Positions 24,940 through 54,932 of a stretch of 59,754 nt of DNA are shown piece by piece (within the stretch, counting starts at the first letter, position 1; every line of letters starts with the position of its first letter). Source of the DNA: Carcharhinus longimanus (taxonomy: Eukaryota); assembly GCA_030264375.1 (NCBI GenBank), contig JASCQW010000001.1, positions 126,328,909-126,388,662 of the forward strand, in the 5' to 3' direction. The position numbers and the translations under genes were made by a program. Below the pieces are notes generated by a model, which was given only the letters and a program-made list of their open reading frames with translations, made no database searches and was not told the origin of the DNA.

Positions 24940-25145
24940 GAGGAAAGGTTTATCACGATTGGAGAGGACGTATATCACAAGATTCCCATGGAACTTATTC
25001 TGTTGTAGTGATGGAACCAGCTCCCCAAACAGCGTGGCCTAAAACTAAGGTTTCAAAAGCTAGAAAACAGATGTCAAAACCACAGAGCAATGTGAAAAAA
25101 GCTCTCGACTCCATCGTACACCAAAAGGACAACGTAGACCAGAGG
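24940..25145 (+). CDS. Internal coding exon of an unidentified gene (phase 1 to 0): GKVYHDWRGRISQDSHGTYSVVVMEPAPQ...DNVDQR
   Basis: Acceptor ctgtttttcactag|g, donor agg|gtatga, open frame (ORF 24831..25151), non-repetitive, phase matches the next exon. Confidence 0.8.
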
Positions 25146-25424
25146 GTATGAGAGAATTGCTTGTAGATGAGTCATACTGTTGTTAAGGTTGGGTATGGTT
25201 ATCTCAAGACTATTTTATTTTAGAAATTATAATAGCATGAGAGAATCACTTAATTTTTTAAACCAAGTTTTTTAGGCAGAAATTACATTTATAGGTGAAA
25301 GTTTGTGATATTTTCTTTTTGAAGAGACAGAAACATATTTGTTTTAATATCACTATGATTATCAAGTAATTCCTATCCTCTAAAAGCTTAAATCATTAGT
25401 AACCACAAGTTATGTAGAATAGCC

Positions 25425-25636
25425 ATAGAATCATAGAATTATAGACGTTTATGGCACAGAAGGAGGCCATTTGCTTCATCATGTCTATACTGACCCTAAA
25501 ATATCCAGCTCTTGGCCTGTAGCTTCATAAATTATGCAGTTTAAGTGCATCTCCAAAATTTAATTTAAAGAAAATGGTGGGTTCTGCTTCAATTATTCTT
25601 GCAGACAATGAGTTCCAGATCACAACCACCCCCTGA
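25425..25636 (-). mobile_element. CR1/HER1-like LINE 3' tail
   Basis: (catagaat)n then ggcacagaaggaggccatt...gagttccagatcacaaccaccc. Confidence 0.65.
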
Positions 25637-25637
25637 A

Positions 25638-25943
25638 TAGGGCGGCACAATGGTTAGCACTGCTGTCTCACAGTGTCATGGGCCTGGGTATGATTCCTGG
25701 CTTAGGTCACTGTGCGGAGTTTGCACGTTCTCCCTGTGTCTGCATGGGTTTCCTCGGGGTGCTCTGGTTTCCTCCCACAGTTTGAAAGGCATGCTGGTTA
25801 GGTGCATTGGCCATGCTAAATTCTCCCTCGGTGTACCCAAACAGCACCTGAGTGTGGCGACTAGGGGATTTTTACAGTAACTTCATTGCAGTTTTAATGC
25901 AAGCCTACTTGTGACTAATAAATAATCTTTAACTTTTAACTTT
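25638..25943 (+). mobile_element. HE1-like V-SINE, tail type A
   Basis: gggcggcacaatggttagcactgctg head, V-domain, tail cctacttgtgactaataaataa...(ttaactt)n. Confidence 0.9.
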
Positions 25944-25964
25944 AGATGTAAAATTTTACATCTT

Positions 25965-26232
25965 TAAGGGGTCAGCCATTCAGGACTGAGATGAGGAAGA
26001 ACTTCATCACTCAGAGAGTTGTGAACCTGTGGAATTCTCTACCACAGAAAGTTGTTGAGGCCAGTTCATTAGCTCTGTTCAAGAGGGAGCTGGACATGGT
26101 CCTTGCAGCTAAAGGGATCAAGGAGAGAAAGTGAGAGTGGGATATTGAACGTGCACGATCAGCCATGATCATTATTGAATGATGTTGCAAGCTTTAAATG
26201 CTGAATGGCCTATTCCTGCACCTACTTTCTAT
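25965..26232 (+). mobile_element. CR1 LINE 3' end
   Basis: FRTEMRKNFITQRVVNLWNSLP, then 3' UTR tggcctattcctgcacctactttctat. Confidence 0.8.
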
Positions 26233-26274
26233 TTTTTTTACTTTCTTCTAAAACCTGTACCAATTATGTGGGCC

Positions 26275-26408
26275 CTGATGAAGAGTCATCTAGACTCAAA
26301 ACATCATTTTTTTTCTCTCTCCACAGATGCTGTCAGACCTACTGAGGTTTTCCAGCATTTTCTGCTTTTGTTTCATATTCCAACATCAGCAGTAATTTGT
26401 TTAAATTA
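26275..26408 (+). mobile_element. Penelope-like terminal repeat fragment containing a degenerate minimal hammerhead core
   Basis: CTGATGA-a-GAGTC-atcta-GACTC-AAAAC, followed by cacagatgctgtcagacctactgag...ccagcattttctg. Confidence 0.65.
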
Positions 26409-26861
26409 ATGCCTCTTGGAAATTGACCTCTCTGCTAAGGGAAATCAGTCCTTCCTGACAACTGTACTTCACTTTAGGATACATCTCAGTTAAATCTCCC
26501 TTTGGCCCCCTTCGTTACAAAGCAAACAATCCAAAGCAAGCTAACGATACTACCTTTCATCATAGCCAAAATTCTCAATTCCTGACAACATCTTCATAAT
26601 CTCCTCTGTACCCTCTCTCATGTAGTCCATTTAATCCTGGTGATTAGTACTGTATGCAATATCCTAGCTTTGGCCTAACTAATATTTTCTAGTTCTAGTG
26701 AGCGGAATCTCCCATTCTGAAGACAAAGTGTGAAATTTTCCGGATCTTTGGCAACGGAGGGTGCAAGTCACCAAAATTATCATTGATGTTGGCAGGTCCA
26801 GAATGTTTTAATACTTTGGGAATAATAACTCCCAAAACCTCATACTGCTAATTATTTTCAG

Positions 26862-26935
26862 GAAACTGCAGTGGGAGGCTTTCCTGAAAAAAAGATGTGG
26901 GAAAATGCTCCATTAGAAAGTCCAGAAAATCAGAG
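26862..26935 (+). CDS. Internal coding exon (phase 0 to 2): ETAVGGFPEKKMWENAPLESPENQ
   Basis: Branch-like ctaat plus attttcag| acceptor, donor ag|gtaatt. Its 74 nt bridge the phase-0 donor at 25145 and the phase-2 acceptor at 40101. Not in the ORF track. Confidence 0.75.
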
Positions 26936-27729
26936 GTAATTTCATTTATGTGACCTTCAAGCAACACATTGTGACAACTTGATTATTAGTTCAGAACACC
27001 ATATATCAATATTTAAATGTTTGTATACATGGGTATCTAGAGAGGTCTATTGAAGAATTACTATTATTTTGTTTCCGTCAATTGTGGATATTTTATAAAG
27101 GCCTGAGTTCTTCAGTGACTCAACCTTCTCCAACTGCCCACATCCAAGTCATGCTCCAATGAGCATCGATTGAGTGCAGACAAGAAATCTGGGCCTCATT
27201 TGGGAGGAAGTCCCACCTTTGAAAGCTGTCATTGGGATCTTGGGAGAGAGAGGCTGCAGGGGAGGGAGGCCTGGAGGCCGCTGGACCTTAAAAGGAATTT
27301 GCCCAACTTCAGGGGCCTCCTGATGGATGCACCCTGTTCCATTCTCAAATCCCACCTGAGATGTAACTTAATTGTATTTCAGGCTTCCCCTATGGAGGTT
27401 CAATCTTCCTGCTAGTCTAATAGGCAGGAAACAGCCCCTAAAAGGGCCTAATTTTGAGCAAGGGCAGGCTTCCTGTACAAGGCCTTGCTCACCTTTGGTT
27501 CAGGTGGGAAGGAACCCAGAGGAAATCCCATCCCTTCAACTTCACGCCCTCCTCTCTCCTCCCAAAACCTGCCAGGAGGGAGCATAAAATTCTGCCAAAG
27601 ATATCTGTCTTCTAATATACTTTGATTTCTTTGCTTGATACTTAAGAGCACAGCATAATGTTATGCTATTGCATTGATAAATCAGGGGCTGGAGCTGTTT
27701 ATTCTCTCAAGGGATGAGACCTTCATTGA

Positions 27730-28390
27730 CTTGACCAGCATTTGTTGGCTATTCCAAATTGTTCTTGAGAAAGTGATGGTGAACTGCTTTCTTATACCAT
27801 TGCTGTTGATTTTGACCCAGTGGCAGTGAAGGAATGGCAAAGACATAATATCAAGTCAGGGTGACATGTAACTTGGAGGGGAACTTGTAGATGTTGGTGT
27901 TTCCATGAATCTGCTGGAATGTACTGGCAGATGCATGAGACCACAGCAGCTGGAAATCTAAATTCAATTAATAAATAAATCTGAATTTTCTTTTACATGT
28001 TCATGAAATGTAGCCATCACTGGTAAGGGCAGCATTCATTGATGATCCTTAATTTCCCTTCGGAAGATGGTGGGAGTCGCCCTTTGAACTGCTGCAGTCC
28101 ACGATGGCATATGTACACCCATAGTGATGGATCTCTTAGTTAGGGTGCTATATAACTTAAAGGGGAACATGCTGTTTTTGTTGTCCTTTTTGGTAGAAGC
28201 TGTGTGTTAGGAAGGGGTTGTCAAAGGAGCCTTGCTGAGTTGCTACGGTGCATCATGTCATTGGTGTCATGTTGTACCATTGTTGAGTGGAGTGAATGTT
28301 TAAGGTGGTGAATGGTATGCCAATTAAGCAGGTTGTGTTGCCATGGAGGAGAGTGGTGAGCTCCTCAAATTGTATTAGAACTAATTCATC
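27730..28390 (-). mobile_element. Two decayed 3' fragments of the second LINE family
   Basis: ccagcattt...cttgagaaagtgatggtgaactgc and cagcattc...cccttcggaagatggtgg...ctgcagtcc, homologous to 8910-9400. Confidence 0.65.
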
Positions 28391-28599
28391 GAGGGAGGCT
28401 GGGGAATTTTTTAACACAGGAAAATATTAGTATCAATAGTGATGCCCTGGAAACTACCATCTTAAATTTTAAAACCGGTAGAACCAAGGTGCAAAAGCAA
28501 GCAAAAAGGAGGCAGTAACCACCAACCAGAAGAATGGACAAAAGGAGGGCCAGGAGTCAGTAACCACCCTAGGTATGTTACCCAATCCAGTCTGTGGCT

Positions 28600-29118
28600 C
28601 TAACAGCAGAACAGCCACGTTCTGAGTGGAATCAAAATCTGACATCGCAGGAACAGGTAAGTGATTATTTGATGAATATTTTGCTTGTTTGTCTTCAAAA
28701 CTCACCACTGTGATGTTTTTACTAATTCTAGTAAGTTTTACTAGTAATAGTAAAAGATGTTGGAAGTAGCAATGTTCAATAATTATAGATTGGTCAAGAA
28801 AAATGAATTAATTAACACATAATAAAGGTGCAGGGCAGGTGATAGATTGTGACTACAGAATGTAGGGCCCCTGGTACTGGAATAACTCTAGGCAAACACA
28901 TCTACAGGAAGTATCTGTGCCTTGAGAAGCTTCAGCTCAGAGTCAGTGAGCTGGAGGCCAAGCTGTAGATACTGCAAAGCATTGGGGGGATGTTACAAGG
29001 GCACTTTGTACCAGGAGGCTGTCACAGCCCTTAAGATAGGTTCTTCTGATTTGATCAATTTGTTGATGACACAAATATAGGTAGGAAAGTAAGTTGTGAA
29101 GAGGACATAATGAGACTA
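28600..29118 (+). mobile_element. CR1 LINE 5' UTR/ORF1 zinc-finger-coiled-coil fragment fused to a short RT fragment
   Basis: GKHIYRKYLCLEKLQLRVSELEAKL (ORF1-like); tttgttgatgacacaaat = FVDDT (FADD motif). Confidence 0.6.
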
Positions 29119-29119
29119 T

Positions 29120-29640
29120 TGTTAGCGCGAGTGGGCGAATTGACCACTACAGACTCAGGGTGAAGTTCAATAACGGCACAGCTTTATTTTCTTTTTATGT
29201 CGACGGAGAAGCACAGTCAGGACATACAATCGGACTGTCCCGAAAGCGCTCTAAAGACTCCCCCACAATGGGCTACAGTTATATTTGAACTTCGCGTTTC
29301 AAATGCTAATCCTTTATTTACAGTATTTGACTTTAGCCATCCTGTTTCGATGTTTTCAAGTGTTGGAGCAATTGTTTTATGTGTGTGTTAATCGTTTTTG
29401 TCTGGTTGTTTCCTTAACTGTGTTAATTTTAGGTGTCTCCATGGGTTGTTTGACTGGTTTAGAAGTGCTGATTTTGATGGGGTGGGGATGTGTTCTTTAA
29501 TTTAGTTCCTGTAGGTGCCATCCTGTCCAATTTCCCTTATGTGCTAGCCCTCATTTGCATTCTAAAAGCATGCTCTTGCCTACTGATCAGTGTCTGTTAC
29601 TTTGTGATTTTAGTGGAGGGCTCTGAGGATAGCTTTAGTT
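29120..29640 (-). mobile_element. Putative LTR (solo or truncated), CpG-rich
   Basis: On the minus strand: TATA-like aaatataac (~29280), AATAAA (29183-29188), ends ...gctaaca at 29120. High CpG versus flanks. No TSD found. Confidence 0.45.
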
Positions 29641-30385
29641 TGCTTCCATTTTGTGTGCCCAATTTCATAAAACTTGTTGTCCGATAACAGAGCTTAACTT
29701 TGGTTTTCAGACTGTGGGTATCTGAACCTGCTGGGGGTGGTTTTCCAGCCAGGTTGGAGATGGAACTTAATATTTTTAGGGAAGCTTTTCTAACCCCTTT
29801 CTCCATGTGGGGTGAGCAGTGTGAATCCTGAAGAGTGCTACTCAGTCATGAAGAAAGCTGCTGAAACGCTCTCCTGCTCCTATTCCAAGAGTGAAATGAC
29901 TGAATCAAACTCCACTGTCCACTTGCCAGTCCAAAATTGGGGACTTTCAGATCACAAGATCCTGTACCCATCACCTCTCATCATTTGTCATAAGGCTTGG
30001 TTGTATGGGGGAGAGTTTGTTGGTTTCTCTCGGTAGATGTTGTGTGCGGGACACCTTTTAATGTGGCAATGCAGCTGCACATCAACACACTCACACAATC
30101 CTTGACAGAAGGTAGATCCAGTGCTAGTGGAAAGGGAACCTCAATAACTGGGGAGCTCCCTACTGCTGCAACCTTCATCCACCATTACAGCCATTGACAT
30201 CGCTGTGTATGTATATATATATAGCCTGATCTGCCGTTGAGATTTTGGATTCTGCTTTGGCTGCTTCCTCCCCTTGGGATGACCCTACTAAGACGTTAAG
30301 ACTCCCAGTGGCATTGCTCTTGGGGTCAATGGAGCACTCAAGCCTCTCCACCATGGCAAGGTGACAATCCATGGAAAGGTGCACT
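29640..30385 (-). mobile_element. RTE-clade LINE 5' UTR to start of the endonuclease ORF
   Basis: Minus strand gtcaccttgccatggtggagaggcttgagtgctccattgaccccaagagcaatgcc...gtagggtcatcccaagg resembles Rex3/Expander/BovB 5' UTRs as recalled. Ends in MKLGTQN (cf. APE-start xGTWN). Confidence 0.55.
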
Positions 30386-31121
30386 CGTTAATTGTTCCTA
30401 GAACTTACCAATGCATGATTGGACGCAACACCTCATAAACAACCCTGACCTCAACCCCACCTCTGCTGATCACATGTCTATTCTGCCACACTTACAATAT
30501 TAAAAGCCCTGGGTTTTGAAAATAGTCCCCAGGAATTTCACCTCAACTTTCTTAGGGTCAGATGTGGCCTAACTTTCACCTCCAAGCTGGAGCAGATCTC
30601 CAGCTCAGTCAACCTGTGAAGCTGTGATAGACCTCATAGCCTGATAGTTGCATTTTCTGCAACTATCCACCTCAAAAGACCTCAAATCCAGCCCTATAAC
30701 TCAAATATTATCTGTTTTGTCATTTCATCAACCATTGAGACATTTTTCACAATGCTGAACCATATAATTTAAAAAATCAAGATCAAATCTTTCCACAATT
30801 ATTGACAAATTCGGCTTGTTCAGCTCCATGATGGCATTTTAACACGACACCAAACAATTATGAAACCATCTGCAGCCATGAACAGTAAAAGTAGTGCAGC
30901 ACAATTCACTGACTCCTTCAGAATGATTATGACCCTCGGCCATTAACCAGGTGAAACTTGTCCATGGAGGCACACAATTAAATGGAACATTAGACAATCA
31001 TTAGCCTGCCAGTGTCCATTTCCATTGCCTTCAGTGCAGAGGGACTGTTTTTCAGAATTACAGTGACTGGTATGCTCCTCTTCCTCTCCATATCTCTGCT
31101 GACATGACTCTTTTTCTGGGA

Positions 31122-31471
31122 TATAGAACCATAGAATCCTCACAGTGCAGAAGGAGGCCCTTTGGCCCATCGATTCTGTGCCGTCCCTCTGACTGAGCAT
31201 TTTCCCCAAGACCACCCTATCCCCATAACCCCATGCATTTACTCCACTAATCCCCTAAACTACAAATCTTGGGACACTAAAGGGCAATTTAACATTGTCA
31301 ATCCAACCAACCTGCGCATCTTTGGACTTGTGGGAGGAAACCAGAAAAGCCGGTGGAAACCCATGCAGAAATGAGGAGAATGTGCTAACTCCAGAAAGAC
31401 AGTCACCGAGGCTAGAATTGGGCCCAGGTCCCTGGGGCTGTGAGGCAGCAGTGCTAACCACTGTGCCACCA
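31122..31471 (-). mobile_element. HE1-like V-SINE, tail type B
   Basis: Reverse complement of full head (ggtggcacagtggttagcactgctgcctcacag), V-domain and (ttctatgg)-type tail. Confidence 0.9.
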
Positions 31472-31813
31472 TGGGATATAATTCCATGACTATCAGTGGT
31501 TTCTAGTACCTTGCCAAATTGACTAGGCTTCATTGCTGAGCATTCGTATCTTGTGTCAGCAGAATATCCAATCGATTAGCATCTCTTTGAAATCTCAGTA
31601 CTGTGGTAAGAACCCAACCACCTCCCATCCCATCACAATGAGTGAGAGATGGTCGGGAAAGGTGATGATTAAAAATGAAAATAACTGAAAAGTATCTCCA
31701 GCTCGCCATATACATGTCAGTTGCAATTTTTATAGCAGCAGATTTCATTGCATCAAAGTGTATAGCCATAGAGAGACCAGACATTTCATTTATATTAGGA
31801 ACTAACAGTACAA

Positions 31814-32015
31814 TTAAGTTTAAGTTTATTTATTAGTGTCACAAGTAGGCTTACATTAACGCTGCAACGAAGTTACTGTAAAAATCCCCTACTCACTGCA
31901 CTCCAGTGCCCGTTTGGGTACACTGAGGGAGAATTTAGCATGACCAATGCACCTAACCAGCATGTCTTTTGGACTGTGGGAGGAAACCGGAGCACCCGGA
32001 GGAAACCTATGCAGG
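31814..32015 (-). mobile_element. 5'-truncated V-SINE, tail type A
   Basis: aagtttatttattagtgtcacaagtaggcttacattaac...gggaggaaaccggagcacccggaggaaacc. Confidence 0.85.
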
Positions 32016-32338
32016 CACTGAGTGCCCAATTCAAAATTCATAGTTGCTGCGCACGTCCCCCGGGGGTTTGGAAGCCAAACACTGCAAGGGAAGGTGGAGT
32101 TGCTGGCTCTCCAAGCTAAGTGCCTTTTACAGCACTCCTTGTGGACGAGGAGGTTCAGAAGCCTACCTCCCAGTCACTTGAGGAAGCTTTTGGTCTCCTT
32201 CTGCAGTTTGTGGCTTCTCGCTCCCTCTTAGCATGATCNNNNNNNNNNNNNNNNNNNNNNNNNNNNNNNNNNNNNNNNNNNNNNNNNNNNNNNNNNNNNN
32301 NNNNNNNNNNNNNNNNNNNNNNNNNNNNNNNNNNNNNN

Positions 32339-32745
32339 CTGGGCCTTTAGCCATTGGGAGTTTAAAAGATTGAGAGGTTATTTTATTGAAACATATAAGA
32401 TCCTGAGGAGGTTTAATAGGGTGGATGCTGAAAGGATACTTCCCCCTGTGGCATGGACTGGAATGAGGGAACACAGGTTAAAAGAAAGGATCTCCCATTT
32501 AAGACAGAGATAGAAGAAATGTTTTCTCTCAGAAGTTTCTGAATCTTTGGAACTCTCTTTCCTGGAGAGCAATGGAGGCAACATGTTTGAATATTTTAAA
32601 GGATAGATTCTTGACGAATTGTGAATATAATGCTATTGGGGTTCAGCAGAGTTGAGGCCACAATCAGATCAGCCAATATCTTATTGAATGGCAGTGCAAG
32701 CTTGAGGGGGCTAAATAACATCCCTGCTCTTAATTTGTATGGTTG
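32339..32745 (+). mobile_element. CR1 LINE 3' end
   Basis: LGL..L...RLRG..IETYKILRRFNRVD-like sequence plus 3' UTR. Confidence 0.75.
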
Positions 32746-33969
32746 TGTATAGGTAAAAGCATCATCTCATGACACAGCTGAATCAGTGCTGCTACATGAA
32801 TGAGTATAGAGAAAGGATTTTTTTTGGTGTAGAGTTAAAAATATAACAAGATGGATGGACGTTGTAGAATAAGTTGATCTTGTCTCACCTCTACCACAGC
32901 TCTGCAAGTAGATGAGGAAGACATTTGCCTGGCTATGCAGAGTTGACAAAGTCACCTTATTCATACTGTGCATTTAGTATGGTATATTGGTATAGCATCA
33001 TGTAGGGAGATGTACAGTGTGCATATTCTACATTCTAACACATGCTCCTTTAACATCTTCGTAGAAGACTGGATATAATTTGTTTCAACTTAATAGTGAT
33101 GATAATCATGCTTGAGCGATTAGTTCAAGATTTAAAACAAAATTGCAAACTATGAACATAAAACCATCAAAAGGAATAGGGAAAGGGAAGCAGATAAGCC
33201 TTGCCCAACCTCACACAGGCACCCTGAGTGTCTGTTCAGGAATCAAAGGCAATCAGTGTGTTGAGAGGTGGAGGACATGGAGGCAGAAATAGTTTGGAAT
33301 GGGGTTGGTGGCAGTGGAGGGAGGCTTCATCGTCAATCCTAAGGAAACACTCTTGCCCCCTCCTAGCAGCAAGGAAACGTGAAGTAAAAATTCAACATTT
33401 TCCTCCTGAACTTTTTGCCCATTCTCCCCTTCCAGATATGTTTGATCTTCCAGGAAAGCTGTCACTGATTCCTACACTGACCTTATACTAAAAGGGCAGA
33501 GTGGGTCCTAATGAAGCCACAGTGCTGAGATCTGCGTTATTGAAATCAGGGCCCTGCTGCCTTTCTGCACATCTGTGTGCTGGCTCAAAGGGGCAAGTTA
33601 ATATTCAGTTCTGTCAGGAGTGCAGCAGGATTGGAGGGAGTAGACCATTCCTCTGCCCCTGGCTCCTGTCAAGTTTCTGTAATGGAGTTAAAAATGGAAC
33701 GGTAATATTGTACCTTGTTTTTCATTCTTTATGACTCCATTCATTTACTCTTTCGCTTCTTCGTTCAGTCCATCACACAGAAATAAAATGCAGCATAAGA
33801 TGCTACCATATCTGGCCTCATACAATTCTATTTTAAGGGATGTCTCACAATTAACATTTTCAAAATATGTGCTTCTGCTGCCCCTGTCACTATTGATTAG
33901 GAGGAGGTGACCTCAGTCCAAAGCCTTAACTGAGCTCTCCACAGCAGCATGTTTGTGTCACCTATTTCT

Positions 33970-34650
33970 TTTTGATTTGATTTGATTTATTATTGTCACA
34001 TGTATTGATATAGAGTAAAAAGTATTGTTTCTTGTGCCCCACACAGACAAAGCATACCATTCATAGAGAAGGAAAGGAGAGAATGTAGAATGTAATGTTA
34101 CAGTCATAGCTAGAGTGTACAGAAAGATCAACTTAATATGAGATAGGTCCATTCAAAAGTCTGATGGCAGCAGGGAAGAATCTGTCCTCGAGTCGGTTGG
34201 TGCATGACCTCAGACTTTTGTATCTTTTTCCTGATGGTAGAAGGTTGAACATAAGAACATAAGAAATAGGAGCAGGAGTAGGCCATCTGGCCCTTCGAGC
34301 CTGCCCTGCCATTCAATAAGANNNNNNNNNNNNNNNNNNNNNNNNNNNNNNNNNNNNNNNNNNNNNNNNNNNNNNNNNNNNNNNNNNNNNNNNNNNNNNN
34401 NNNNNNNNNNNNNNNNNNNNNATCATCCCTTGCTACCACCCTGATGCTATCCTTAATCAGCAGAGCTACGCTCCCCCCTTTTTCCTCCCGCCTATCCTTC
34501 CTAAACACTTGATACCCCTGGACATTCAGTTCCCAGTCCCTGTCACCTTGCAGCCACGTCTCTGTAATGGCCACCAGTAGAAGAGAGAATGTTCGGGATG
34601 CATGGGGTCCTTGATTATGCTGGCTGCTTTTCCAAGGCAGTGGGAAGTAC
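33970..34650 (-). mobile_element. Rex1/Babar-like 3' fragment with a nested young CR1 (34247-34575)
   Basis: Homologous to 6062-6420 on both sides of the insert; (tttga)n tail. Confidence 0.75.
34247..34575 (-). mobile_element. Young CR1 LINE, interior hidden by gap
   Basis: 3' tail at left. At right an intact APE segment VAITETWLQGDRDWELNVQGYQVFRKDRREEKGGSVALLIKD. Confidence 0.85.
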
Positions 34651-34654
34651 ATTT

Positions 34655-34800
34655 GAATCATAGAAACCCTACAGTACAGAAAGAGGTCATTCGACCTGCA
34701 CTGACCACAATCCCACCCAGGCCCTAACCCCATATCCCTACATATTTTACCCACTAATCCCTCTAACCTACGCATCTCAGGACACTCAGGGGCAATTTTA
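34655..34800 (-). mobile_element. V-SINE 3' fragment, tail type B
   Basis: gaatcatagaaaccctacagtacagaaagagg...ggacactcaggggcaatttta. Confidence 0.7.
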
Positions 34801-37502: not shown

Positions 37503-37509
37503 ATGCTAA

Positions 37510-38420: not shown

Positions 38421-38422
38421 AA

Positions 38423-38940: not shown

Positions 38941-38944
38941 TGAA

Positions 38945-40100: not shown

Positions 40101-41046
40101 TTCACAGAGAACAGATCCTGAACACAATGGGTTATATCCTTTGATGTCTTTTGACCAAGTTCAACAAGAGGTTAACAGATTCTGCATGGAAAAAGGCTCC
40201 GATGTTCAATTCTCAGCAAATTCTCCGGTTTCAACCATTGACCAAGCTCAAAATGCAGACATACCAATGAAACAGAAACATTCTGATAGTGCTGACAAAT
40301 ATAAAAATGGGTCTATAATGGATGATCAATCTCTTAACAATTTCAAAAAGAATGAAAGCATTTCTATCAAAATGCCAGGCCAACCTGAAGATGCATCTAA
40401 AGCAAACAGCAGACAGATTATTGGTTTTGAAACTTCATTGGATAGCCAGAGTTCGATTTCTCCAAGCAGTGACAGGGATAAGAAACATAAACTTAACAAA
40501 AGATGTAAAGTTGGAGGACAGTCTAATGGACATGCTCTGTCAGCAGTGACAACTACAAATAAGGAAAAGCAAAATAATTTAATGGAGAAGATAGATAAAA
40601 AGGCAATATGTACTTTCTCTGTACAAAAAGGAGAAAGCATTTTTCTGTTTAGTCGTGATGATTGCACCCATTTACAACCACAGTCATTTAAAGAATATAT
40701 TCTAGAGACTTCCTACAATGAAGATTACTTTATAGAACAATATCCAATGAAGACTGATCAAGATCAGCAAAAGCATTCCTTGGTGGTTGAACTAATTGAT
40801 TTATGTGAATGTAAAACGTCCACTTTTGATTATAAACAAACAATGCAGACAATTGAACTGAGAGTTTTAGGTCGTGGTCTAAAGCTACAGGATTCTTCAA
40901 GAGTGAAAAAATATCCTAAATTAGCACTAGATATCGTAAAACATCCAATACTGCCAACCCAACCTAAGAAAATGGAGGGTTTCCAAACAATCAAACCCAC
41001 CAAAGGAGGACGACCAATTGCCTTGCCCTTTCAGCCTAAAGATACA
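40101..41046 (+). CDS. Large 946-nt internal coding exon (phase 2 to 0), hydrophilic S/K/Q/D-rich, unidentified protein
   Basis: Longest real ORF (40141..41172). Acceptor tctttgtag|t at 40100/40101, donor aca|gtaagg at 41046/41047. Phases match both neighbouring exons. Confidence 0.85.
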
Positions 41047-45137: not shown

Positions 45138-45212
45138 AAAGAACAAAGAACAACCCAGCATGGGAAACAGGCCCTTCGGCCCAACGAGCCCGCGCCGCCG
45201 CATCACCCTACA
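45138..45212 (-). mobile_element. Young CR1/HER1-like 3' tail abutting a gap
   Basis: Near-exact reverse complement of 43638-43695. Confidence 0.8.
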
Positions 45213-46941
45213 NNNNNNNNNNNNNNNNNNNNNNNNNNNNNNNNNNNNNNNNNNNNNNNNNNNNNNNNNNNNNNNNNNNNNNNNNNNNNNNNNNNNNNNN
45301 NNNNNNNNNNNNNNNNNNNNNNNNNNNNNNNNNNNNNNNNNNNNNNNNNNNNNNNNNNNNNNNNNNNNNNNNNNNNNNNNNNNNNNNNNNNNNNNNNNNN
45401 NNNNNNNNNNNNNNNNNNNNNNNNNNNNNNNNNNNNNNNNNNNNNNNNNNNNNNNNNNNNNNNNNNNNNNNNNNNNNNNNNNNNNNNNNNNNNNNNNNNN
45501 NNNNNNNNNNNNNNNNNNNNNNNNNNNNNNNNNNNNNNNNNNNNNNNNNNNNNNNNNNNNNNNNNNNNNNNNNNNNNNNNNNNNNNNNNNNNNNNNNNNN
45601 NNNNNNNNNNNNNNNNNNNNNNNNNNNNNNNNNNNNNNNNNNNNNNNNNNNNNNNNNNNNNNNNNNNNNNNNNNNNNNNNNNNNNNNNNNNNNNNNNNNN
45701 NNNNNNNNNNNNNNNNNNNNNNNNNNNNNNNNNNNNNNNNNNNNNNNNNNNNNNNNNNNNNNNNNNNNNNNNNNNNNNNNNNNNNNNNNNNNNNNNNNNN
45801 NNNNNNNNNNNNNNNNNNNNNNNNNNNNNNNNNNNNNNNNNNNNNNNNNNNNNNNNNNNNNNNNNNNNNNNNNATGCTGAGACAGCCAGTGACACCCATG
45901 TCCCATGAAATAATTTTAAAAGAACCCTGTGTGTGACAATGCTAATCTTTAAGATTTAGAATAGGATAGAGTGACACAGAGGGCAACCTCCTCCCAGGTG
46001 TTTCGGGAAAATCTACTATGGCTCCAGTAGCTATCAAAGACAAGGTTGTTTGTTGTGTTACGCTGCCACTTGTCTACAAATGAGTGTCTGCATCCTCCCC
46101 TATCATGTTTGCCTGACACTTTTTAAACTGCTACCCGATTATCTTGGCAAAGGCTGATGATAATGTTTGGAATTTTTTTAAAAGTATATTTATTGTTCAC
46201 AAGTAAGGCTTACATTACACTGCAATGATGTTACTGTAAGGTTTCCAAAGACATTTTCAATTCTGACCACTGCTTTAATTGTCCCCATGACTTGCAAATA
46301 ATTTTTCTCTCCAACCATATGTTAGACGGGCTTTTCCGGCCGCACACACCCCAAGGCCAGAAATTCCCACCTGAGGTCAACAGACCTTGAAATGATCCGC
46401 CAAATTTTCTGTCTTGCCTGCTACATTTCCCACAGTGTCTCTGGATCAATCTGGTGCTGTGCTAGTTATGATAGGAAATGAGCATTGTACTTTTCGAGTG
46501 AGATTTGCTCCAATTCTCAACGTATAATGGCATTAAACCAAAAACAAAAATCAGTCCCACTGTGTGAAAAATGATTAAACTCCTCCATGTGCTGTAATTT
46601 TGCATAACAGGTCACAAAGACATGGGAACGGCTGATTTTTGTCTTCAGTCATGGAGATTGATATTGTCGAATATTTTCAGATCCAAAAGATGCAACTGTT
46701 TGTCTTGCATCACCACTATAACCAGCAAGCAATGCAGTGAATTCAGGGCATTAGTTGCTATTCTACTAATTATCACTGCACAGTAAAATGAGAAAAGTCA
46801 CATTCAGATTGATACATGGTTCAGTTATTCTTCAGTAAATTTTCTTAGGAAGAATTGCTTTTTGGCTATTGCGGAAGAAAAATGTTCCTTCACTTTTTTG
46901 GTAACTGCTGCTGTGATTTCTGTGTTATATTTACATTGTAG

Positions 46942-47105
46942 GATGAAATTGCAAAAGCCTTTGAATATCAGAAGGATGTTAATGCCGCTGTGAATATCCA
47001 TCAGCTCTTCTCAGGTTTAATCAATCAGGAATATACCTTGGAGTTTCTAGCAAGTCAGAGTACAAAGAATCTGAAACGATGGGAGAAACGTTTGAGATGG
47101 GAGAT
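46942..47105 (+). CDS. Internal coding exon (phase 0 to 2): DEIAKAFEYQKDVNAAVNIHQLFSGLINQEYTLEFLASQSTKNLKRWEKRLRWE
   Basis: Acceptor tttacattgtag|gat, donor at|gtatgc, open frame in the required phase. Not in the ORF track. Confidence 0.8.
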
Positions 47106-49812
47106 GTATGCTCTGATTAGATAAGTTTAAATAAGTTAAAGATGCTATCTGAATGTGGATGTTACTGTGTTATTTTATATCAAGTATATGCATGGAAGGT
47201 TTTGCTGATATTATTCCAGCAGATTACTAGAAAGACAGCCTTTTTTGGAAGAAAAATTTCTCCTGCAACATTCCAAATTGATAGTTTACTGGTTAACTGG
47301 TTGACATTCTCTGCCTGAGATTGGTCTCGCATGAAACAGAAAAATCAAGAAACATTCTGACTGAGTCATACTTCTGAAATGTTGGCAAGTGGGGTTGCAC
47401 ACCCCATTTAAGACTAGTTTAACATTTGCCATGACATTCCCATATTAAAATGTCCACCTCTTCTAAGGCTAATAGTGATGCTCTAATATTTTCACTGTTG
47501 ATCTTATAACCTATATGTTGTAACTTTGTGGTGGTGTATTATTGTTGTGGCTTTTGTTTTCTGTTCAATAATGTTTAGAAGGTGCATAAATTGGGAACCA
47601 AAGTTTCACTTTCTATTGTAAGCGCATATTGGATAGGCAATGATTATAATACAATAGTTACCAACCTGATTTCATGGTCAGTTCTTGAGAGGGGCAGAAG
47701 ATTAGACACCATATATATTATTCGGTCAAAACTGAAGAATTGAGGGAAAGTGAAGGAGGAAGTGAATTCTGAAGGGAGAGAATCACAGGTTAAATGAATT
47801 TTGTTAGTTAAATGAGCCTGTTCTCCTATACAATATATAGTTCTGTTGTTAGCGGTGGGAAAGCTAACTTCTTATTTGAAGTCCGACTCAGAAATTGCAC
47901 CAGACAAGCTTCGGATAAGAAGAAAATCAAAGTTTTTGTTTAGAAGTTTCATATTCTCCTTAAAAGCTTCAATGCTCAAGCTCTATTTTTTTACAACAGA
48001 AGCAAATGAAATGTCATAAATCCTGAAATACAGAGACGTCTGGCAAACTAATATGAGGAATGGAGAAAGATAATGTTTTAGAAAACATCCTTTGTTAAAA
48101 TTGTCATAATTTAGTTTGTCTGGAAAATATTTTTTAATGTGAGAAGAGTGGAGTCAGTATTCTAATTTACTTAGACTAATTTATTGTCATTATTAGCAGA
48201 CAAATCAATTAAGTGAGTTCATGCCTTCAGTTAAATAACAGACTAAAGATGGCGATGACAAAGGTGCTAAACTTTGCTTTGCTGAAATCTTACTGATCTC
48301 GAGGTGAATTTTTTAACAAGTCATTTTCAGACAGGAGCTGTGGAAAATCAGGGGGGTAATGTAACCAACTACAAAAAGTTGCAGACTTATCCTGTGCATG
48401 TCCAAAAATAGACCGATTAAATAAATATATAAAGGAGAATGTAAGCAGCAAAGTATTTCATATATAGAAGGAATAACATAAAATTTACATTTTGTTTGTA
48501 ATAGTTACAATAGAGGGCTACAAGGACGTAACAAATTCAATAAGATGAATCAATTGTGGCTAACAAAATAAGTTAAAGATTGAATTAGATCAAAGGAAAG
48601 TGGCTTAAAAAGTAGCTAAAAAAAAGTAGTAGTCCAAGGATTGAGAGCAACTTAGTATCCAGCAAAGGAAAACTAAGAAACTGATAAGAGAAAAAAGAAT
48701 ATGAATAAAAGCTAACAAGAAACATGAAGATGGACACTAAAATCTTCCTTAGGTATGTGATAAAAGGAAAGATTAGCAGAGAAAAAGTGGATCCATTGCA
48801 GGCAGAGACAGGAAATTTATAATGGGAAATAGGGAATGGTGAAGAAATGAAACAATTACTTTGTGTCTATCTTCACAGAAGAAGATACAGAAAATCTCCC
48901 AGAAATGCTAGATAATCAAGGGATTTGTGAAAATGAGGAACTGAACAAAATTGGTATTAATAAAGAGGTAGTACTTGAAAAATTAATTGGACTGAAAGCT
49001 GATAAATCACCTGGGTCTGATAAACTACATCCCAGAGCATAGAAGGAGGTTACTATAGAGGTAGTGGATGCAGAGTTCTGCAGATTCTGGAAAGGTTCTT
49101 GAAAACGGAAAGTAGCTCCACTATTTAAAAAGGGAGAGAGAGAGAAAACAGAGAACTATGGACTGGTTAGTTTGATGTAAGAATAAGGAAAATATTAGAA
49201 TCTATTATAAAGGATGTGTTAAATAGAAAGTTAGAGAATATTGATTTGTTTGGGCAGAGTCAACAAGAATGTATGAATGGAAAATCATGTTTGATAAACC
49301 TGTTGGAATTTTTTGAGGATGTTACCTGTAGCACTGATAAACAAGAATGAGTGATGTGATGTATTTGGATTTTCAGAAGGCTTTTGATAAGATCCCATAC
49401 AGCTTAGCGAGCAATTACAGTACATGGATTGGGTATGATATAATGGGATGGATTGAGAATTGTTAACAGATAGAAAACAGAGAGTAGAAATAAATGAGTC
49501 ATTCTGAAGTTTGCAGGCTGTGACTAAAGGGTATCACAATGGTCAATTCTGGGACCACTGCTGTTCATAATCTATATAAATGATTTGGATATGGGGACCA
49601 AAGGTAATATTTCCAGATTTGCTAATGACACAAAACAAGTGGAATGCAAATTGTGAGAAGGATGCAAGGAGGCTTTGAGGGGTCTTGAACAATCTAAGTG
49701 AGTGGGCAAAAATATGGCAGATGGAAAGTGATATGAATAAGTATGTGGTTATCCACTTTGGTAGAAAGCACAGAAGAGCAGAATATTTCTTAAGTGTTGA
49801 AAGGTTCAAAAG

Positions 49813-51182
49813 AACATAAGAACATAAGAAATAGGAGCAGGAGTAGGCCATCTAGCCCCTCGAGCCTGCCTTGCCATTCAATAAGATCNNNNNNNNNNNN
49901 NNNNNNNNNNNNNNNNNNNNNNNNNNNNNNNNNNNNNNNNNNNNNNNNNNNNNNNNNNNNNNNNNNNNNNNNNNNNNNNNNNNNNNNNNNNNNNNNNNNN
50001 NNNNNNNNNNNNNNNNNNNNNNNNNNNNNNNNNNNNNNNNNNNNNNNNNNNNNNNNNNNNNNNNNNNNNNNNNNNNNNNNNNNNNNNNNNNNNNNNNNNN
50101 NNNNNNNNNNNNNNNNNNNNNNNNNNNNNNNNNNNNNNNNNNNNNNNNNNNNNNNNNNNNNNNNNNNNNNNNNNNNNNNNNNNNNNNNNNNNNNNNNNNN
50201 NNNNNNNNNNNNNNNNNNNNNNNNNNNNNNNNNNNNTCCAGTCTACTCAATCTCTCCTCTTGAGCTAACCCCCTCATCTCCAGAATCAACCTGGTGAACC
50301 TTCTCTGCACTCCCTCCAAAGCCAATATGTCCTTTCACAAATAAGGGGACCAAAATTGCACACTGTACTCTAGTTGCGGCCTCACCAGTACCTTGTGCAA
50401 TTGCAGCAAGATCTCCCTGCTTTTATATTCCATCCCTCTTGCGATAAAGCCCAACATCCCATTTGCCTTCTTGATCACCTGCTGCACCTGCAGACTGAGT
50501 TTTTGTGATTCATGCACAAGGACCCCTTGTCCCTCTGCACAGTAGCTCACCATTTAAATAATAGTCCATTTTACTATTATTCCTTTCAAAGTGGATAACC
50601 TCACACTTGCCAATGTTATACTCCATCTGCCAGATCCTTGCCAATCACTTAGCCTATCCAAATCTCCCTGCAGACTTTCTGCATCCTCCACGCAATTTGC
50701 TTTCCTACTCATCTTTGTATCATCCGCAAACTTTGTTACCCTACACTCGATCCCCTCCTCCAGATCGTCTATGTATATGGTAAACAGTTGAGGCCCTAGC
50801 ACCGATCCCTGCGGCATGCCACTAGTCACCAACTGCCAACCAGAAAAGCACGCATTTATTCCAACTCTCCGCTTTCTGTTAAATAGCTAATTCTCAATCC
50901 ACGCTAACACTTTACCTCCAAGTCCACGTATCCTAATCTTCAGCAGCAACCTTTTGTGAGGCACCTTATCAAACGCCTTCTGGAAATCTAAAAACACCAC
51001 ATCCACTGGTTCCCGTCTGTCAACTGCACTCGTTACATCTTTGTAAAAATCCAGTAAATTCATCAAACATGACTTCATGAAACCATGCCGTGTCTGCTTG
51101 ATTGAGCCATTCTTTTCCTGGTGTCCTGCTATTTCTTCCTTAATGATGGATTCCAGCATTTTCCCAACTACGGACGTTAAGC
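49813..51182 (-). mobile_element. Young 5'-truncated CR1 LINE (RT domain)
   Basis: FLDFQKAFDKVPH, PQGSVLGPQLFTIYIDDL, FADDTK, LVRPQLEY; TSD caaaag at 49807-49812 and 51183-51188. Confidence 0.92.
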
Positions 51183-51356
51183 CAAAAGGACCTGGGTGTC
51201 CTTGTTTACAAGTCACAAAGAGCTGACATGCAGATGCAGTAAGCAATTAGGAAGGCAAATGGTATATTAGTCTTTATTGCAAGAGGATTTGAGTATAAGA
51301 GTGATGATCTCTTGCCGCAATTATATTGAGCCTTCATGAAACCACACTTTGATAGT

Positions 51357-51560
51357 GGGCAGAATTGACTGTGCAACCTGCCCCCTGTTTTGTGGTGGCA
51401 GGATGTGGCCTGCCATTTGCCGGCAGGAAGAACTTCCCACCATTGTCAATGGGATTTCCAGTTGAATGCACCCTTCACTACTGTAAAATCCGCAACAGGT
51501 GTGTGCTGTCAGTGGGACTGGAAAATTCCAGTGGCGTGAACAACTGGAAAGTTCCGGCCA
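51357..51560. mobile_element. MITE-like insertion within CR1
   Basis: Interrupts the host between ...acactttgatagt and ttgtatctagtttgg. Imperfect inverted ends gggcagaatt / aagttccggcc. Confidence 0.55.
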
Positions 51561-51803
51561 TTGTATCTAGTTTGGGTTTCCTTATCCAAGGAAGGATGTA
51601 TTTGAATTAGAATGAATACAACAGCGAATCACCAGACTACTCCCTGGGATGGATGGATTGTCTTATGAGAAGAGATTGAGGAAACTGGGCCTGTATTCTC
51701 TAAAGTTCTGAAAAATAAGTGGTCATCTCATTGAAACTTAAATTCTTACAGGGAATGATGAGGTTGACATGGAGAAGATATGGCCCCTGGCTGATGAGAT
51801 GGG

Positions 51804-52093
51804 ATAGAATCCTTACAGTGCAGAAGAGGCCATTTGGCCCATCAATTTTGCACCCACTCCTCTATCCCTGCAACCCCACACATTTAACATGGTTAATCCA
51901 TTTAACCTGCAGATCTTGGGACATTAAAGGCAATTTGACATGTCCAATCTACCTAACCTGCACATCTTTGGATTGTGGGAGGAAAACCGGAGCACCTGGA
52001 GGAAACCCACGTAGACGAGGGAAAAACATGCAAACTCCACATAGTCACCCAAGGCCGGAATTGAACCAGGGTTCACAGAGATGTGAGGCAGTA
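51804..52093 (-). mobile_element. HE1-like V-SINE, tail type B, slightly 5'-truncated
   Basis: atagaatccttacagtgcagaagaggccatttggcccatc...gggaggaaaaccggagcacc...ggaattgaacc...tgtgaggcag. Confidence 0.88.
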
Positions 52094-52409
52094 GGGCGAA
52101 AGGACAAAGGACAATGTCTTAGAATAAGGAGAAAATCATTTAAGACTGAGATGAGGAGGAATTTCTTCACTTAGTGGAATCTTTACCCTAGAGGGTTTTG
52201 AAACTAAATTATTGAACACGTTCAAGGCAGAAATTGATAGATTTCTGGATACTAATGATATCCAGGGATATTGGGATGGTGTGGGAATGATGAGATGAGG
52301 TAAATGTTCAGCCAGCTTAAGCCTGCTCTGATGTTGCCACGATAGTGAATTTCTTTAAACAAATTTTAAACAATATAATCCACAGAGTTCACCAAATTAT
52401 TAACTGCTA

Positions 52410-52655
52410 AGATATGGGTAAGGCCAGCATTTATTGACCATTCCTAATTGCACTTGGGAAAGGGGTGGTCTTGAGCCATCTTCTTGAATGTGGTTTGCTA
52501 AGTAATTTCAGAAGACAGCTATGAGTCAATCACACTGCTTTGGATCAGGATTTATATTTAGCTAGATGGGGGCACAGATTTCCAGTCCTAAAGGATATAC
52601 GTAAACTAGAAGGTCTTTTACAACAATCCAGTAGCTTTGTGGTCATCATCACTGA
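52410..52655 (-). mobile_element. Older SINE 3' part carrying the second-LINE-family tail
   Basis: Tail gccagcatttattgaccattcctaattgcacttg joined to a non-LINE body that overlaps the end of the 37333 head. Confidence 0.5.
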
Positions 52656-52909
52656 TAATATCCAATGTTTATGAATTTCATCTGATACCCTTTGAAGTTC
52701 GAGGAGGTTGTGATGATAATTTTATCGATAGGCATCTATCTTCCCGATGTTTATGTAAAATATAATTTGAAAGAGAAGAGAACAAACAGAATGAAATTGA
52801 GGAATGTTCAAAGGATATGAGTAGGAAAGGGACAGGGAGGAGGGGATTGGGACAAGAGTGGGAAAAATTCATCAAAAGGAGTGAGGTCCACAGGGTGAGC
52901 GGGGTGTTT

Positions 52910-53735
52910 TTTCTTTATTCGTTTGTGGGATGTGAGCATCATTGGCAAGGCCAACATTTATTGGCCACCCCTAATTATTCTTGGGAAAGTGATGGTGCCC
53001 AGCCTTCTTGGACCACTGTAGTCTACGTAAGTAGTTACACATGGGTCGGGATTGACCAGCTCACAGCATCTATCATGAGGTTCTAGTCTCTTTACCTAGG
53101 GAAGATTATACTTTCCTTAGAGGCTCAAGACCACCCCTTTCCCAAGTGCAATACTGGTTTACTAGACTGATTTGTAGGATGAGGTGCTTTCCGTGCCTGG
53201 AGACATTAAGTAGAATATACCGATAGGCCCGAATTTTCTGTCTTTATTTGGGCAAATGTTTGTTTCAAGTAGGAAAAGCAGAGGGCTGCCCATTGGCTGC
53301 CTTGCCAGGTTTTCCTGCCAAATTTTGCAGTGCATCTTGTAGGTAGTACACACAGCTGGTACTGTTCATCGAGGGTGGAAGGAGTGAATGTTTGTGGATA
53401 GCATGCCAATCAAGGGGGCTGCTTTGTCCTGGATGGTGCCAAGCTTCTTAAATATTGTTGGAACTGCATTCATCCATGTAAATGGTGTGTACTCCATCAC
53501 ACTCTTGACTTGTGCCTTGTAGATGGCAGACAGGTTTTGAAGAGTCAGAAACTGATTTACTTGCCACAGATTCTTGGCCTCTGACCTGCTCTTGTAGCCA
53601 CAGTATTTAAATAGCTGGTCCGGTTTAGTCTGTATGCTAACCCTAGGATGTTGATAGAGGGGGATTCAGCAATTGTAATGCCATTGAATGTCAAGGGGAG
53701 ATGGTTAGATTCTCTCGTTAGTGATGGTCATTGCA
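52910..53735 (-). mobile_element. Second LINE family 3' fragment interrupted by a CR1 patchwork (53030-53325)
   Basis: Homologous to 8910-9650 on both sides of the interruption. Confidence 0.7.
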
Positions 53736-54785
53736 TATAAACATTTTAACACCTGATAGGATTGATCACCTAGAGGGAATCCAGATCGGAAGCCCTAATC
53801 GTTCCCATGCTTGAATGCCGAACATCCCAATCTCCTTGTGCAAAAGCCAAACTTCCTAACTTCACCCTGCTCGACGATGGCTATCTCCGACTTCCAGCTC
53901 TTGATGTGGCTGGCCCATCTTGACCTCTTCCTGGACAATGGTGGCCATTCACAATTTCTGCTTACTGGATAGCCTAGCTTCTAGACCTTCCAGTTGATGG
54001 CAGTCCTACTCAGCTCCTCCCACTCAACATCACACTCCTAGCAGTCACTCCCAAAGGCAGAGACAGAGGACCTGGTGCATTGCATTAGGAAGATATAAGG
54101 CAGAATGTAGGCTAAGGCAAGGGCAGAACTTCACCTTGTACACCTTGCAAGGTCTGAAGAAAGCATTGGCCACACACTGCATCATTAGCAAACAGAACTC
54201 TCCTTATATGAGGAAGGCAAGAAAGGAGGTAGTGAAGAATCTGGCATGTCCTATTCACTCATTGACCACTGTTGCTCTGGCAGTGTCTAAAGCAGCCAAT
54301 CTGGTGTGCAGACTATCCCGGTTGAAGAATGCTTGGTCTAAAATTGCTGTTGTTGCCGCATTGCGTTGGAAAATATATGCTTGAGCCATTTCCAACACCG
54401 CCCCCCCCCCAACCCTGTTTCTGAGCTGTAATTTTCTATGTTTCTATGGTTCTCCCAGGCCCTGCACAAGAGTAATTGCAGCAACAAGGCCTATATGTAC
54501 ACAAGGGAAAGCTTGATAAGCATGAGAGAGAAAAGATATATTGGTATGGTTAGATGACAAAAAGTTGGAGACATATACATGGGCAAAGATGCTTGTTTTT
54601 GTGCTGCAAATACATATTATCTTTGTAATAAATGAAATATTATCAAAGCATTTTCAATCAATATGTAAACAAAGTTTAAATTCTTAGCTCTATGATTGCA
54701 ATTTTCCAAGTTGTATTCTCCCTGGCTACCATGTCAGTGTCATTCGTTAAATCCATTTGTGTCTATTTTGTGTTTTTTCCTTTAG

Positions 54786-54932
54786 CCAGCTGCAAATACA
54801 CAGAGGTAGGCTGTTGAACGTTTATAACCGACCACTAAATGTGGAAATGATGGCATGGCAAAAGGTTCTGCTCAAGAAGAGGATGCAGCACAAAATTGAT
54901 AGGAGGAGGATATTCCGCTTGTATCAAAGACG
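54786..54932 (+). CDS. Internal coding exon (phase 2 to 2): QLQIHRGRLLNVYNRPLNVEMMAWQKVLLKKRMQHKIDRRRIFRLYQR
   Basis: Strong pyrimidine tract tttgtgttttttcctttag|c, donor cg|gtaaac, open in the phase required by the 47105 donor. Not in the ORF track. Confidence 0.8.

What the first reader, a model, noticed from the sequence alone, without database searches (positions are those of the whole stretch)
24940..54932. Unidentified multi-exon gene: five phase-compatible exons, three invisible to the ORF track
Seen: GT-AG exons 24940-25145, 26862-26935, 40101-41046, 46942-47105 and 54786-54932 join (phases 1-0, 0-2, 2-0, 0-2, 2-2) into a stop-free ~512 aa frame. It has a short W/Y-containing N-part (KVYHDWRGRISQDSHGTYSVVVM), a long hydrophilic, probably disordered exon, and a basic, probably helical C-part (KRWEKRLRWEIQLQIHRGRLLNVYNRPLNVEMMAWQKVLLKKR). 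I recognise no family. Inference: a fast-evolving or poorly annotated protein. It continues beyond the window.
Basis: partly seen in the sequence, partly recalled or inferred. Interest (0 to 1): 0.7.

Follow-up and report, generated by a model that had tools for sequence, protein, structure and literature searches.

The report
Shark IQCM gene, middle five exons
The five exons are the middle of a shark copy of the named but little-studied vertebrate gene IQCM, which likely encodes a calmodulin-binding sperm or cilium protein, so the gene is real but not a new family.

Summary
All five exons have AG/GT ends and join into 511 codons with no stop. They map in order, almost edge to edge, onto residues 297-810 of a 1055-aa catshark protein. 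They are exons 11-15 of a 20-exon, 1053-codon, stop-free model spanning about 300 kb. The IQ motif lies in the next exon, beyond the window (28 bits, above Pfam's cut-off). Homology, a tree and neighbours (a doublecortin-family gene and a mineralocorticoid-receptor-like gene) make it the IQCM ortholog. Three extras: a DWRG motif in exon 1 is kept from brachiopod and amphioxus to mammals; exon 4 holds a decayed IQ motif that is intact in invertebrates; and a predicted EF-hand-like lobe follows the IQ motif. The large exon changes fast at the amino-acid level (16 non-synonymous, 2 synonymous; not significantly above neutral). No RNA junction, expression or binding was shown. Two look-ups found no earlier scan note on this gene. 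Low interest.

The parts
24940..25145 (+). IQCM coding exon 11 of 20 (phase 1-0), in the predicted disordered linker
   Evidence: AG/GT, open frame; 62% identical to XP_038647896.1 residues 297-365, E 7e-19
24957..24968 (+). DWRG short motif, isolated in the linker and conserved across the family
   Evidence: Found in Lingula, amphioxus, ray-finned fish, lizard and mammal homologues; an HMM from 23 non-shark segments ranks this exon first of 1515 open-frame pieces, E 4e-5, next 0.72
26862..26935 (+). IQCM coding exon 12 (phase 0-2), linker
   Evidence: 69% identical to the catshark protein, 81% to S. torazame
40101..41046 (+). IQCM coding exon 13 (946 nt, phase 2-0): long hydrophilic, predicted disordered exon; only its last ~15 codons are conserved outside cartilaginous fish
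   Evidence: 57% identical to the catshark protein, E 5e-93; low pLDDT in the homologue model; no indel or stop against organisms B and C, 16 non-synonymous: 2 synonymous changes against C; alignment
46942..47105 (+). IQCM coding exon 14 (phase 0-2), start of the conserved helical C-terminal region
   Evidence: 81-85% identical to Scyliorhinus proteins; best hit, E 1e-6, of an HMM built from 19 non-chondrichthyan homologues
46996..47028 (+). Decayed IQ motif (IHQLFSG in place of IQRIFRG)
   Evidence: Aligns without gaps to the canonical IQ motifs of amphioxus and Lingula homologues; no Pfam IQ hit in this exon
54786..54932 (+). IQCM coding exon 15 (phase 2-2), long basic helix leading to the IQ exon; its start may hold a second decayed IQ motif
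   Evidence: 48-55% identical to Scyliorhinus proteins; second hit, E 7e-4, of the non-chondrichthyan HMM; in phase with IQ exon 16 at G000:C1:126402552

Best explanation
The five exons are exons 11-15 of an intact-reading shark ortholog of IQCM (IQ motif containing M), whose protein likely binds calmodulin or a calmodulin-like light chain through its IQ motif and likely acts as a non-enzymatic scaffold in sperm or motile cilia. Shown here: the exon chain, the 1053-codon frame, the IQ motif in exon 16, orthology by homology, tree and neighbours, the DWRG motif and the decayed IQ motif in window exon 4. Predicted: an N-terminal helical domain (about residues 1-105), a ~600-residue disordered linker (window exons 1-3), a long helix (window exons 4-5) running into the IQ helix, and then an EF-hand-like lobe without canonical calcium ligands. 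Inferred: calmodulin docks on the IQ helix, DWRG docks on a conserved partner, the linker is a fast-changing spacer, and the protein works in the testis as other IQC proteins do. Odds: identity about 0.96; calmodulin-family binding about 0.75; main role in sperm or cilia about 0.6.
For: Identity: the exon 4 hit is named IQCM-like. Atlas feature hits for that homologue are IQCM clusters at 0.97, 0.96 and 0.95. The own model matches proteins named IQCM in coelacanth (E 1e-66), gar (8e-44), lizard (2e-46) and three mammals (1e-46 to 2e-39). In the tree the own sequence sits with Scyliorhinus (SH-aLRT 96) inside a 64-row clade (100) that holds every vertebrate row named IQCM and follows the expected species order, with amphioxus outside. 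Neighbours: DCX-domain exons at C1:126.05-126.12 Mb on the minus strand, and two steroid-receptor zinc-finger exons at C1:127.07-127.09 Mb; the one tested is best matched by an ancestral MR DNA-binding domain. A cattle GWAS table lists DCLK2 and IQCM at one locus (PMC8341487, passage). Mechanism: PF00612 at 28 bits in exon 16 and in 36 of 44 aligned homologues at E <= 0.1; AlphaFold order/disorder pattern; calmodulin-, troponin C-, centrin- and light-chain-type lobes dominate the fold matches for the part after IQ (Z up to 8.0, rmsd 2.3-2.8 in the top five, 72-86 aligned). Human IQCM was called testis-specific (PMC7436996, passages). IQCD, IQCF1, IQCG, IQCH and IQCN act in sperm, and IQCH binds calmodulin through its IQ motif (bioRxiv 2023.06.23.546221, passages).
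Against: No spliced read supports any junction in this species, so the model rests on genomic DNA and on predicted RefSeq/UniRef proteins. No expression or binding data exist for the shark gene. Exon 19 was found only on another contig (C105), so the C1 copy may lack it (it is 156 nt, phase 1-1, so its loss keeps the frame). The tree is the quick version (SH-aLRT only). The MR hit is only 2.5-4 bits above the ancestral SR2 and glucocorticoid receptor hits, and the name DCLK2 for the neighbour is recalled, not tested. EF-hand fold scores are middling, Foldseek gave no E <= 0.001, and 0 of 44 homologues hit a Pfam EF-hand. IQCM mRNA is reported in duck olfactory tissue (PMC13141697, passages), so it may not be testis-only. 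The structures are of homologues (catshark, Mobula), not of this protein.
Confidence: 0.85

Rival explanations
1. The gene is IQCM, but the big exon 3 and exon 4 form an optional cassette, and the main product is a short form that joins exon 2 to exon 5, like tetrapod IQCM.
For: A Pristiophorus protein named isoform X7 has no match to window exons 3 and 4 and runs from exon 2 to exon 5 sequence; the phases (2 to 2) allow it. Four tetrapod IQCM proteins have no match to that block. DWRG-to-IQ distance is 104 aa in lizard and 178 aa in X7, against 550 aa here. Exon 3 shows no sign of amino-acid constraint.
Against: Exon 4 is among the best conserved exons against Scyliorhinus (81-85%) and is homologous out to invertebrates. 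Exon 3 keeps its frame in six shark and ray species. Long forms also occur in sturgeon, bichir, amphioxus and Lingula.
Confidence: 0.2
2. The locus is a decaying or truncated IQCM copy (exon 19 moved to another chromosome, linker drifting neutrally) that no longer makes a working protein.
For: Exon 19 lies on C105, not C1. Exon 3 has pN/pS of 2.2-3.1 against organism C, not distinguishable from 1 (p 0.40-0.12).
Against: No stop in 1053 codons, and all 19 introns have AG and GT ends. No indel in 946 nt of exon 3 against organism C, while nearby intron contigs carry 28-38 gap letters per 1.5-1.9 kb. Exon 5 shows 3 non-synonymous: 4 synonymous changes. Exon 2 of the gene is 97% identical to catshark. 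The C1 intron where exon 19 belongs is 24% N with eight 100-N runs, and the C105 exon sits among such runs, which fits a misplaced contig.
Confidence: 0.05
3. It is an unknown, shark-specific gene family unrelated to named genes.
For: No Pfam hit above cut-off for any of the five exons. Most of exon 3 has no relative outside cartilaginous fish. Several shark relatives are named 'uncharacterized'.
Against: Exons 4 and 5 are the top two hits of an HMM built only from non-shark homologues. The exon 1 motif is conserved to mammals. The next exon carries the IQ motif in phase. Tree and neighbours agree with IQCM.
Confidence: 0.02

Closest known systems
Scyliorhinus canicula XP_038647896.1 (uncharacterized LOC119963211, 1055 aa) and S. 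torazame XP_072353941.1 (IQ domain-containing protein M-like)
   Same: One alignment over residues 1-1052, same order of blocks, 45-97% identity in 19 of 20 exons.
   Different: Another species; last exon only 30% identical. In S. torazame the gene is recorded as two separate predicted proteins (722 and 273 aa).
Tetrapod IQCM (IQ motif containing M; Anolis, Ctenodactylus, Cynocephalus, Jaculus records)
   Same: One IQ motif plus the conserved C-terminal domain (27-54% identity per exon); DWRG-type motif in lizard and several mammal rows; DCLK-type neighbour.
   Different: 472-596 aa against 1053 aa. They lack the block encoded by window exons 3-4, and no match to the shark N-terminal helical domain was found.
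Invertebrate IQCM-like proteins (Branchiostoma, Lingula, Acanthaster)
   Same: DWRG motif (amphioxus, Lingula), long linker, and the region from the end of window exon 3 to the C-terminus (E 1e-57 to 1e-40).
   Different: Amphioxus and Lingula carry two and three Pfam IQ stretches; in the shark the upstream ones are decayed.
Other sperm IQC proteins (IQCD, IQCF1, IQCG, IQCH, IQCN)
   Same: IQ motif; reported roles in sperm through calmodulin (bioRxiv 2023.06.23.546221, passages).
   Different: Analogy only. None appeared among the 20 hits that were named, and no direct comparison was run.
Calmodulin / myosin light chain / centrin EF-hand lobe
   Same: Predicted four-helix lobe after the IQ motif, Z 7-8.
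   Different: 6-18% identity in the top rows, no Pfam EF-hand in 44 homologues, loops lack the usual acidic ligands by eye. It is fused to an IQ-bearing chain.

Membership tests
IQCM (IQ motif containing M) | Sequence homology of the C-terminal domain to proteins named IQCM | tested here: met
   blastp of the own model: coelacanth 1e-66, lizard 2e-46, gar 8e-44, mammals 1e-46 to 2e-39 (names)
IQCM (IQ motif containing M) | IQ motif (PF00612) | tested here: met
   Exon 16, 14 kb past the window: 28 bits against a cut-off of 20.3; in phase with window exon 5
IQCM (IQ motif containing M) | Placement among vertebrate IQCM proteins in a tree | tested here: met
   96 rows, quick IQ-TREE with SH-aLRT only; rows aligning over fewer than 110 residues were left out. 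Own sequence with Scyliorhinus (96) inside a 64-row clade (100)
IQCM (IQ motif containing M) | Conserved neighbourhood, between DCLK2 and NR3C2 (human order recalled; DCLK2-IQCM adjacency in cattle from PMC8341487) | tested here: met
   DCX/DCLK-family gene about 100 kb upstream, head to head; MR-like zinc fingers about 550 kb downstream on the same strand. Family-level identity is shown. The exact paralog is best-hit (MR, narrow margin) or recalled (DCLK2).
IQCM (IQ motif containing M) | Single-copy gene | tested here: inconclusive
   12 matches, none a clear duplicate of another; 11 on C1 and one on C105, but the search used a stricter first look. Exon 4 DNA has one match.
IQCM (IQ motif containing M) | Testis-enriched expression, as reported for human IQCM | not testable with these tools
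   No RNA run was listed for this species
IQCM (IQ motif containing M) | Calmodulin binding through the IQ motif | not tested
   Inferred from the motif; no complex was predicted, since it would pass by likeness to solved IQ-calmodulin structures
EF-hand (calmodulin-like) domain | Paired helix-loop-helix fold | tested here: inconclusive
   Confident model (pLDDT 87); top VIA rows are mostly EF-hand lobes but Z <= 8.0; Foldseek best E 0.043
EF-hand (calmodulin-like) domain | Canonical calcium-binding loop sequence (Pfam EF-hand match) | tested here: not met
   0 of 44 homologues at E <= 0.1; own exon 18 no hit

The most novel reading that the evidence does not exclude
IQCM is an ancient animal sperm or cilium scaffold with an undescribed design: a lone DWRG docking motif kept from brachiopods to mammals, a fast-evolving disordered tether, an ancestral run of three IQ motifs, and its own built-in calcium-blind EF-hand lobe that could compete with calmodulin for an IQ helix. 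Sharks keep the long ancestral form with two IQ motifs decaying and can splice it down to a tetrapod-like short form, so they show the step by which the gene shrank.
Probability: 0.25. Interest if true: 0.42.

Novelty: new member of a known kind. Interest (0 to 1): 0.17.

Why it matters
Mainly an annotation result: it names the gene and shows that several 'uncharacterized' shark and ray proteins, some split in two, are IQCM. IQCM was listed as testis-specific and without a mouse model in 2020 (PMC7436996, passages), and four literature searches listed no study devoted to it. The conserved DWRG motif, the decayed IQ motifs and the predicted EF-hand-like lobe give concrete residues to mutate when someone studies it. 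None of this would greatly surprise a specialist.

Tried and rejected
Pfam on the five single exons and four other long window ORFs: no hit above cut-off. Exon 3 against proteins of 553-2000 aa: none of 1206 candidates passed, a false negative, since searches show clear relatives. Expression: no RNA holder listed. The runs laid covered introns like exons, so they behave as DNA and say nothing about splicing. Positive selection on exon 3: not shown (16:2 against organism C, p 0.40-0.12; 20:2 over B and C, two-sided p 0.20-0.056; organism B depth under 4). An apparent excess of changes in exon 5 (7 in 147 nt) was dropped: nearby introns differ by about 2.5-3% and 4 of the 7 are synonymous. Extra exons in the window: tblastn with 11 further homologues found none beyond the five at E <= 0.05. 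Rfam: no match. Foldseek: no E <= 0.001 for either model. Matches of the N-terminal helical domain are unrelated helical bundles (Z <= 8.4), so no fold is named. No long near-identical overlap between the C105 block and the C1 intron, so misplacement of exon 19 is not proven. Functions claimed for IQCM in a goat paper (matrix remodelling) and a duck paper (microtubule dynamics) were not adopted: the passages seen gave no experiment on IQCM. Earlier scan notes: nothing relevant. No complex prediction was run.
Full report
1. Observation. The five intervals all begin after AG and end before GT. Joined, they read 511 codons without a stop in one frame, against 30 and 51 stops in the others. Only 2 of 1549 YAG-started 946-nt stretches in the window are open in the needed phase.

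2. Identity. Exon 4 found one protein among 9 candidates: S. torazame 'IQ domain-containing protein M-like', 81% identical, E 1e-18. Its cluster holds a 1055-aa S. canicula protein, XP_038647896.1. All five window exons align to that protein in order and almost edge to edge, over residues 297-807. With it as guide I located the other exons in the own genome. The result is 20 coding exons from G000:C1:126,219,452 to about 126,520,960, all 19 introns bounded by GT and AG, 1053 codons and no internal stop. The window holds exons 11-15. Exon 16, 14 kb past the window, carries an IQ motif at 28 bits, above Pfam's cut-off of 20.3, and continues exon 15 in phase 2. Exon 19 was found only on contig C105. 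It fits in phase, and the C1 intron where it belongs is 24% N, so I read it as a probable assembly misplacement, which is unproven.

3. Orthology. A phmmer search with the catshark protein gave 111 relatives at E <= 0.001; I named 20 of them by cluster look-up. Those from gar, coelacanth, lizard and three mammals are named IQCM. The own model matches them at E 1e-66 to 2e-39. The Atlas gives IQCM clusters as the top three feature hits for the shark homologue (0.97-0.95). A quick tree of the C-terminal region (96 rows, SH-aLRT only; rows aligning over fewer than 110 residues left out) puts the own sequence with Scyliorhinus (96). Both sit inside a 64-row clade (100) that holds all vertebrate rows named IQCM, with amphioxus as sister. 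The neighbours agree. A doublecortin-family gene lies head to head about 100 kb upstream. Two steroid-receptor zinc-finger exons lie about 550 kb downstream on the same strand, and the one tested is best matched by an ancestral mineralocorticoid receptor, narrowly ahead of glucocorticoid receptor. The human order NR3C2-IQCM-DCLK2 and the name DCLK2 for this neighbour are recalled; a cattle table lists DCLK2 and IQCM at one locus (PMC8341487, passage).

4. Anatomy. AlphaFold on the catshark protein with 71 aligned rows gives confident helices at about 1-105 and 706-1055, and mostly low confidence at 107-700. (a) The W-containing peptide of exon 1 is a DWRG motif. The pattern occurs in 43 of 129 sequences; two of these have it only at an unrelated place, and many of the rest are fragments. 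Carriers include Lingula, amphioxus, sturgeon, gar, lizard and mammals. An HMM from 23 non-shark segments ranks this exon first among 1515 open-frame pieces (E 4e-5, next 0.72). (b) Exons 4 and 5 are the top two hits of an HMM built from 19 non-chondrichthyan homologues (E 1e-6 and 7e-4, next 0.91). Exon 4 aligns without gaps to a canonical IQ motif of amphioxus and Lingula but has lost the Q and both R residues. A second, weaker remnant spans the exon 4/5 junction. Six invertebrate-clade rows scanned with more than one Pfam IQ stretch in five cases plus amphioxus; the five vertebrate fish and ray rows and two tetrapods scanned have one each (2, 3, 3, 2, 1, 2 and 1 stretches in the seven non-vertebrate rows; 1 in each of the six vertebrate rows). 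(c) After the IQ helix, a model of the Mobula homologue (pLDDT 87) resembles calmodulin, troponin C, centrin and light-chain lobes (Z up to 8.0). This is a middling score: Foldseek gives no E <= 0.001 and no homologue has a Pfam EF-hand (0 of 44). (d) Four tetrapod IQCM proteins and Pristiophorus isoform X7 lack the exon 3-4 block.

5. Rate of change. Contigs of related organisms cover exon 3 with no indel or stop, while nearby introns carry many gaps. Against organism C, exon 3 has 16 non-synonymous and 2 synonymous changes (pN/pS 2.2-3.1, p 0.40-0.12). Exon 5 has 3 and 4, taken from a cut table (Fisher p 0.03 between the exons). This shows a kept frame with little amino-acid constraint. It does not show positive selection.

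6. Likely working. Shown: gene structure, IQ motif, conserved motifs, orthology. Inferred: calmodulin or a related chain binds the IQ helix, and the protein is a scaffold in sperm or cilia. Support comes from papers of which I read only matching passages. Human IQCM was called testis-specific and lacked a mouse model (PMC7436996). Five other IQC proteins act in sperm, IQCH through calmodulin (bioRxiv 2023.06.23.546221). Iqcm appears among spermatogonial genes (PMC10837949) and among duplicated sperm-linked genes in rat (PMC13477028). Against a testis-only role: IQCM mRNA in duck olfactory tissue (PMC13141697). A pig and a goat GWAS name it only as a candidate. Four searches listed no paper devoted to IQCM. 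The library lacks most subscription journals, and I read no supplements, where expression or proteomic data may lie.

7. Verdict. Splicing, expression and binding remain untested. Interest 0.17.

Noticed in passing
L005 / G000:C105:62245817-62245972: The only copy found of IQCM exon 19 lies on a different large contig from the other 19 exons, among 100-N runs; probably a misplaced contig, possibly a real move.
   Followed up: partly
window 26935 to 54786: Exon 2 can splice in phase to exon 5; Pristiophorus isoform X7 has this form, which resembles short tetrapod IQCM.
   Followed up: partly
window 40110 and 40179: Two in-phase AG sites inside the start of exon 3; Pristiophorus isoform X3 matches exon 3 only from about 40210, so an inner acceptor may be used there.
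   Followed up: no
L008, L010 (G000:C1:126219452-126274121): The N-terminal ~105-residue helical domain is highly conserved in sharks (up to 97% per exon) and detectable in sturgeon and gar; the exon scanned had no Pfam hit above cut-off, and no match was found in four tetrapod IQCM proteins.
   Followed up: partly
proteins P0067, P0085, P0092 and related rows: A more distant invertebrate group (Lineus, Lingula, Lottia; one named VWFA domain-containing) shares only the IQ-plus-lobe region, so the module may be reused in other proteins.
   Followed up: no
P0003 and P0001 (S. torazame); P0030 and P0006 (Narcine): Public annotations split the gene into two predicted proteins; the S. torazame N-terminal one appears to read on past the end of the big exon into intron sequence.
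   Followed up: partly
window 1100-1390, 15780-16080, 25640-25940, 31130-32020, 51800-52100 and others: Several families of 200-350-nt interspersed repeats (68-87% alike, SINE-like by size) fill the introns; no Rfam match in the window.
   Followed up: no
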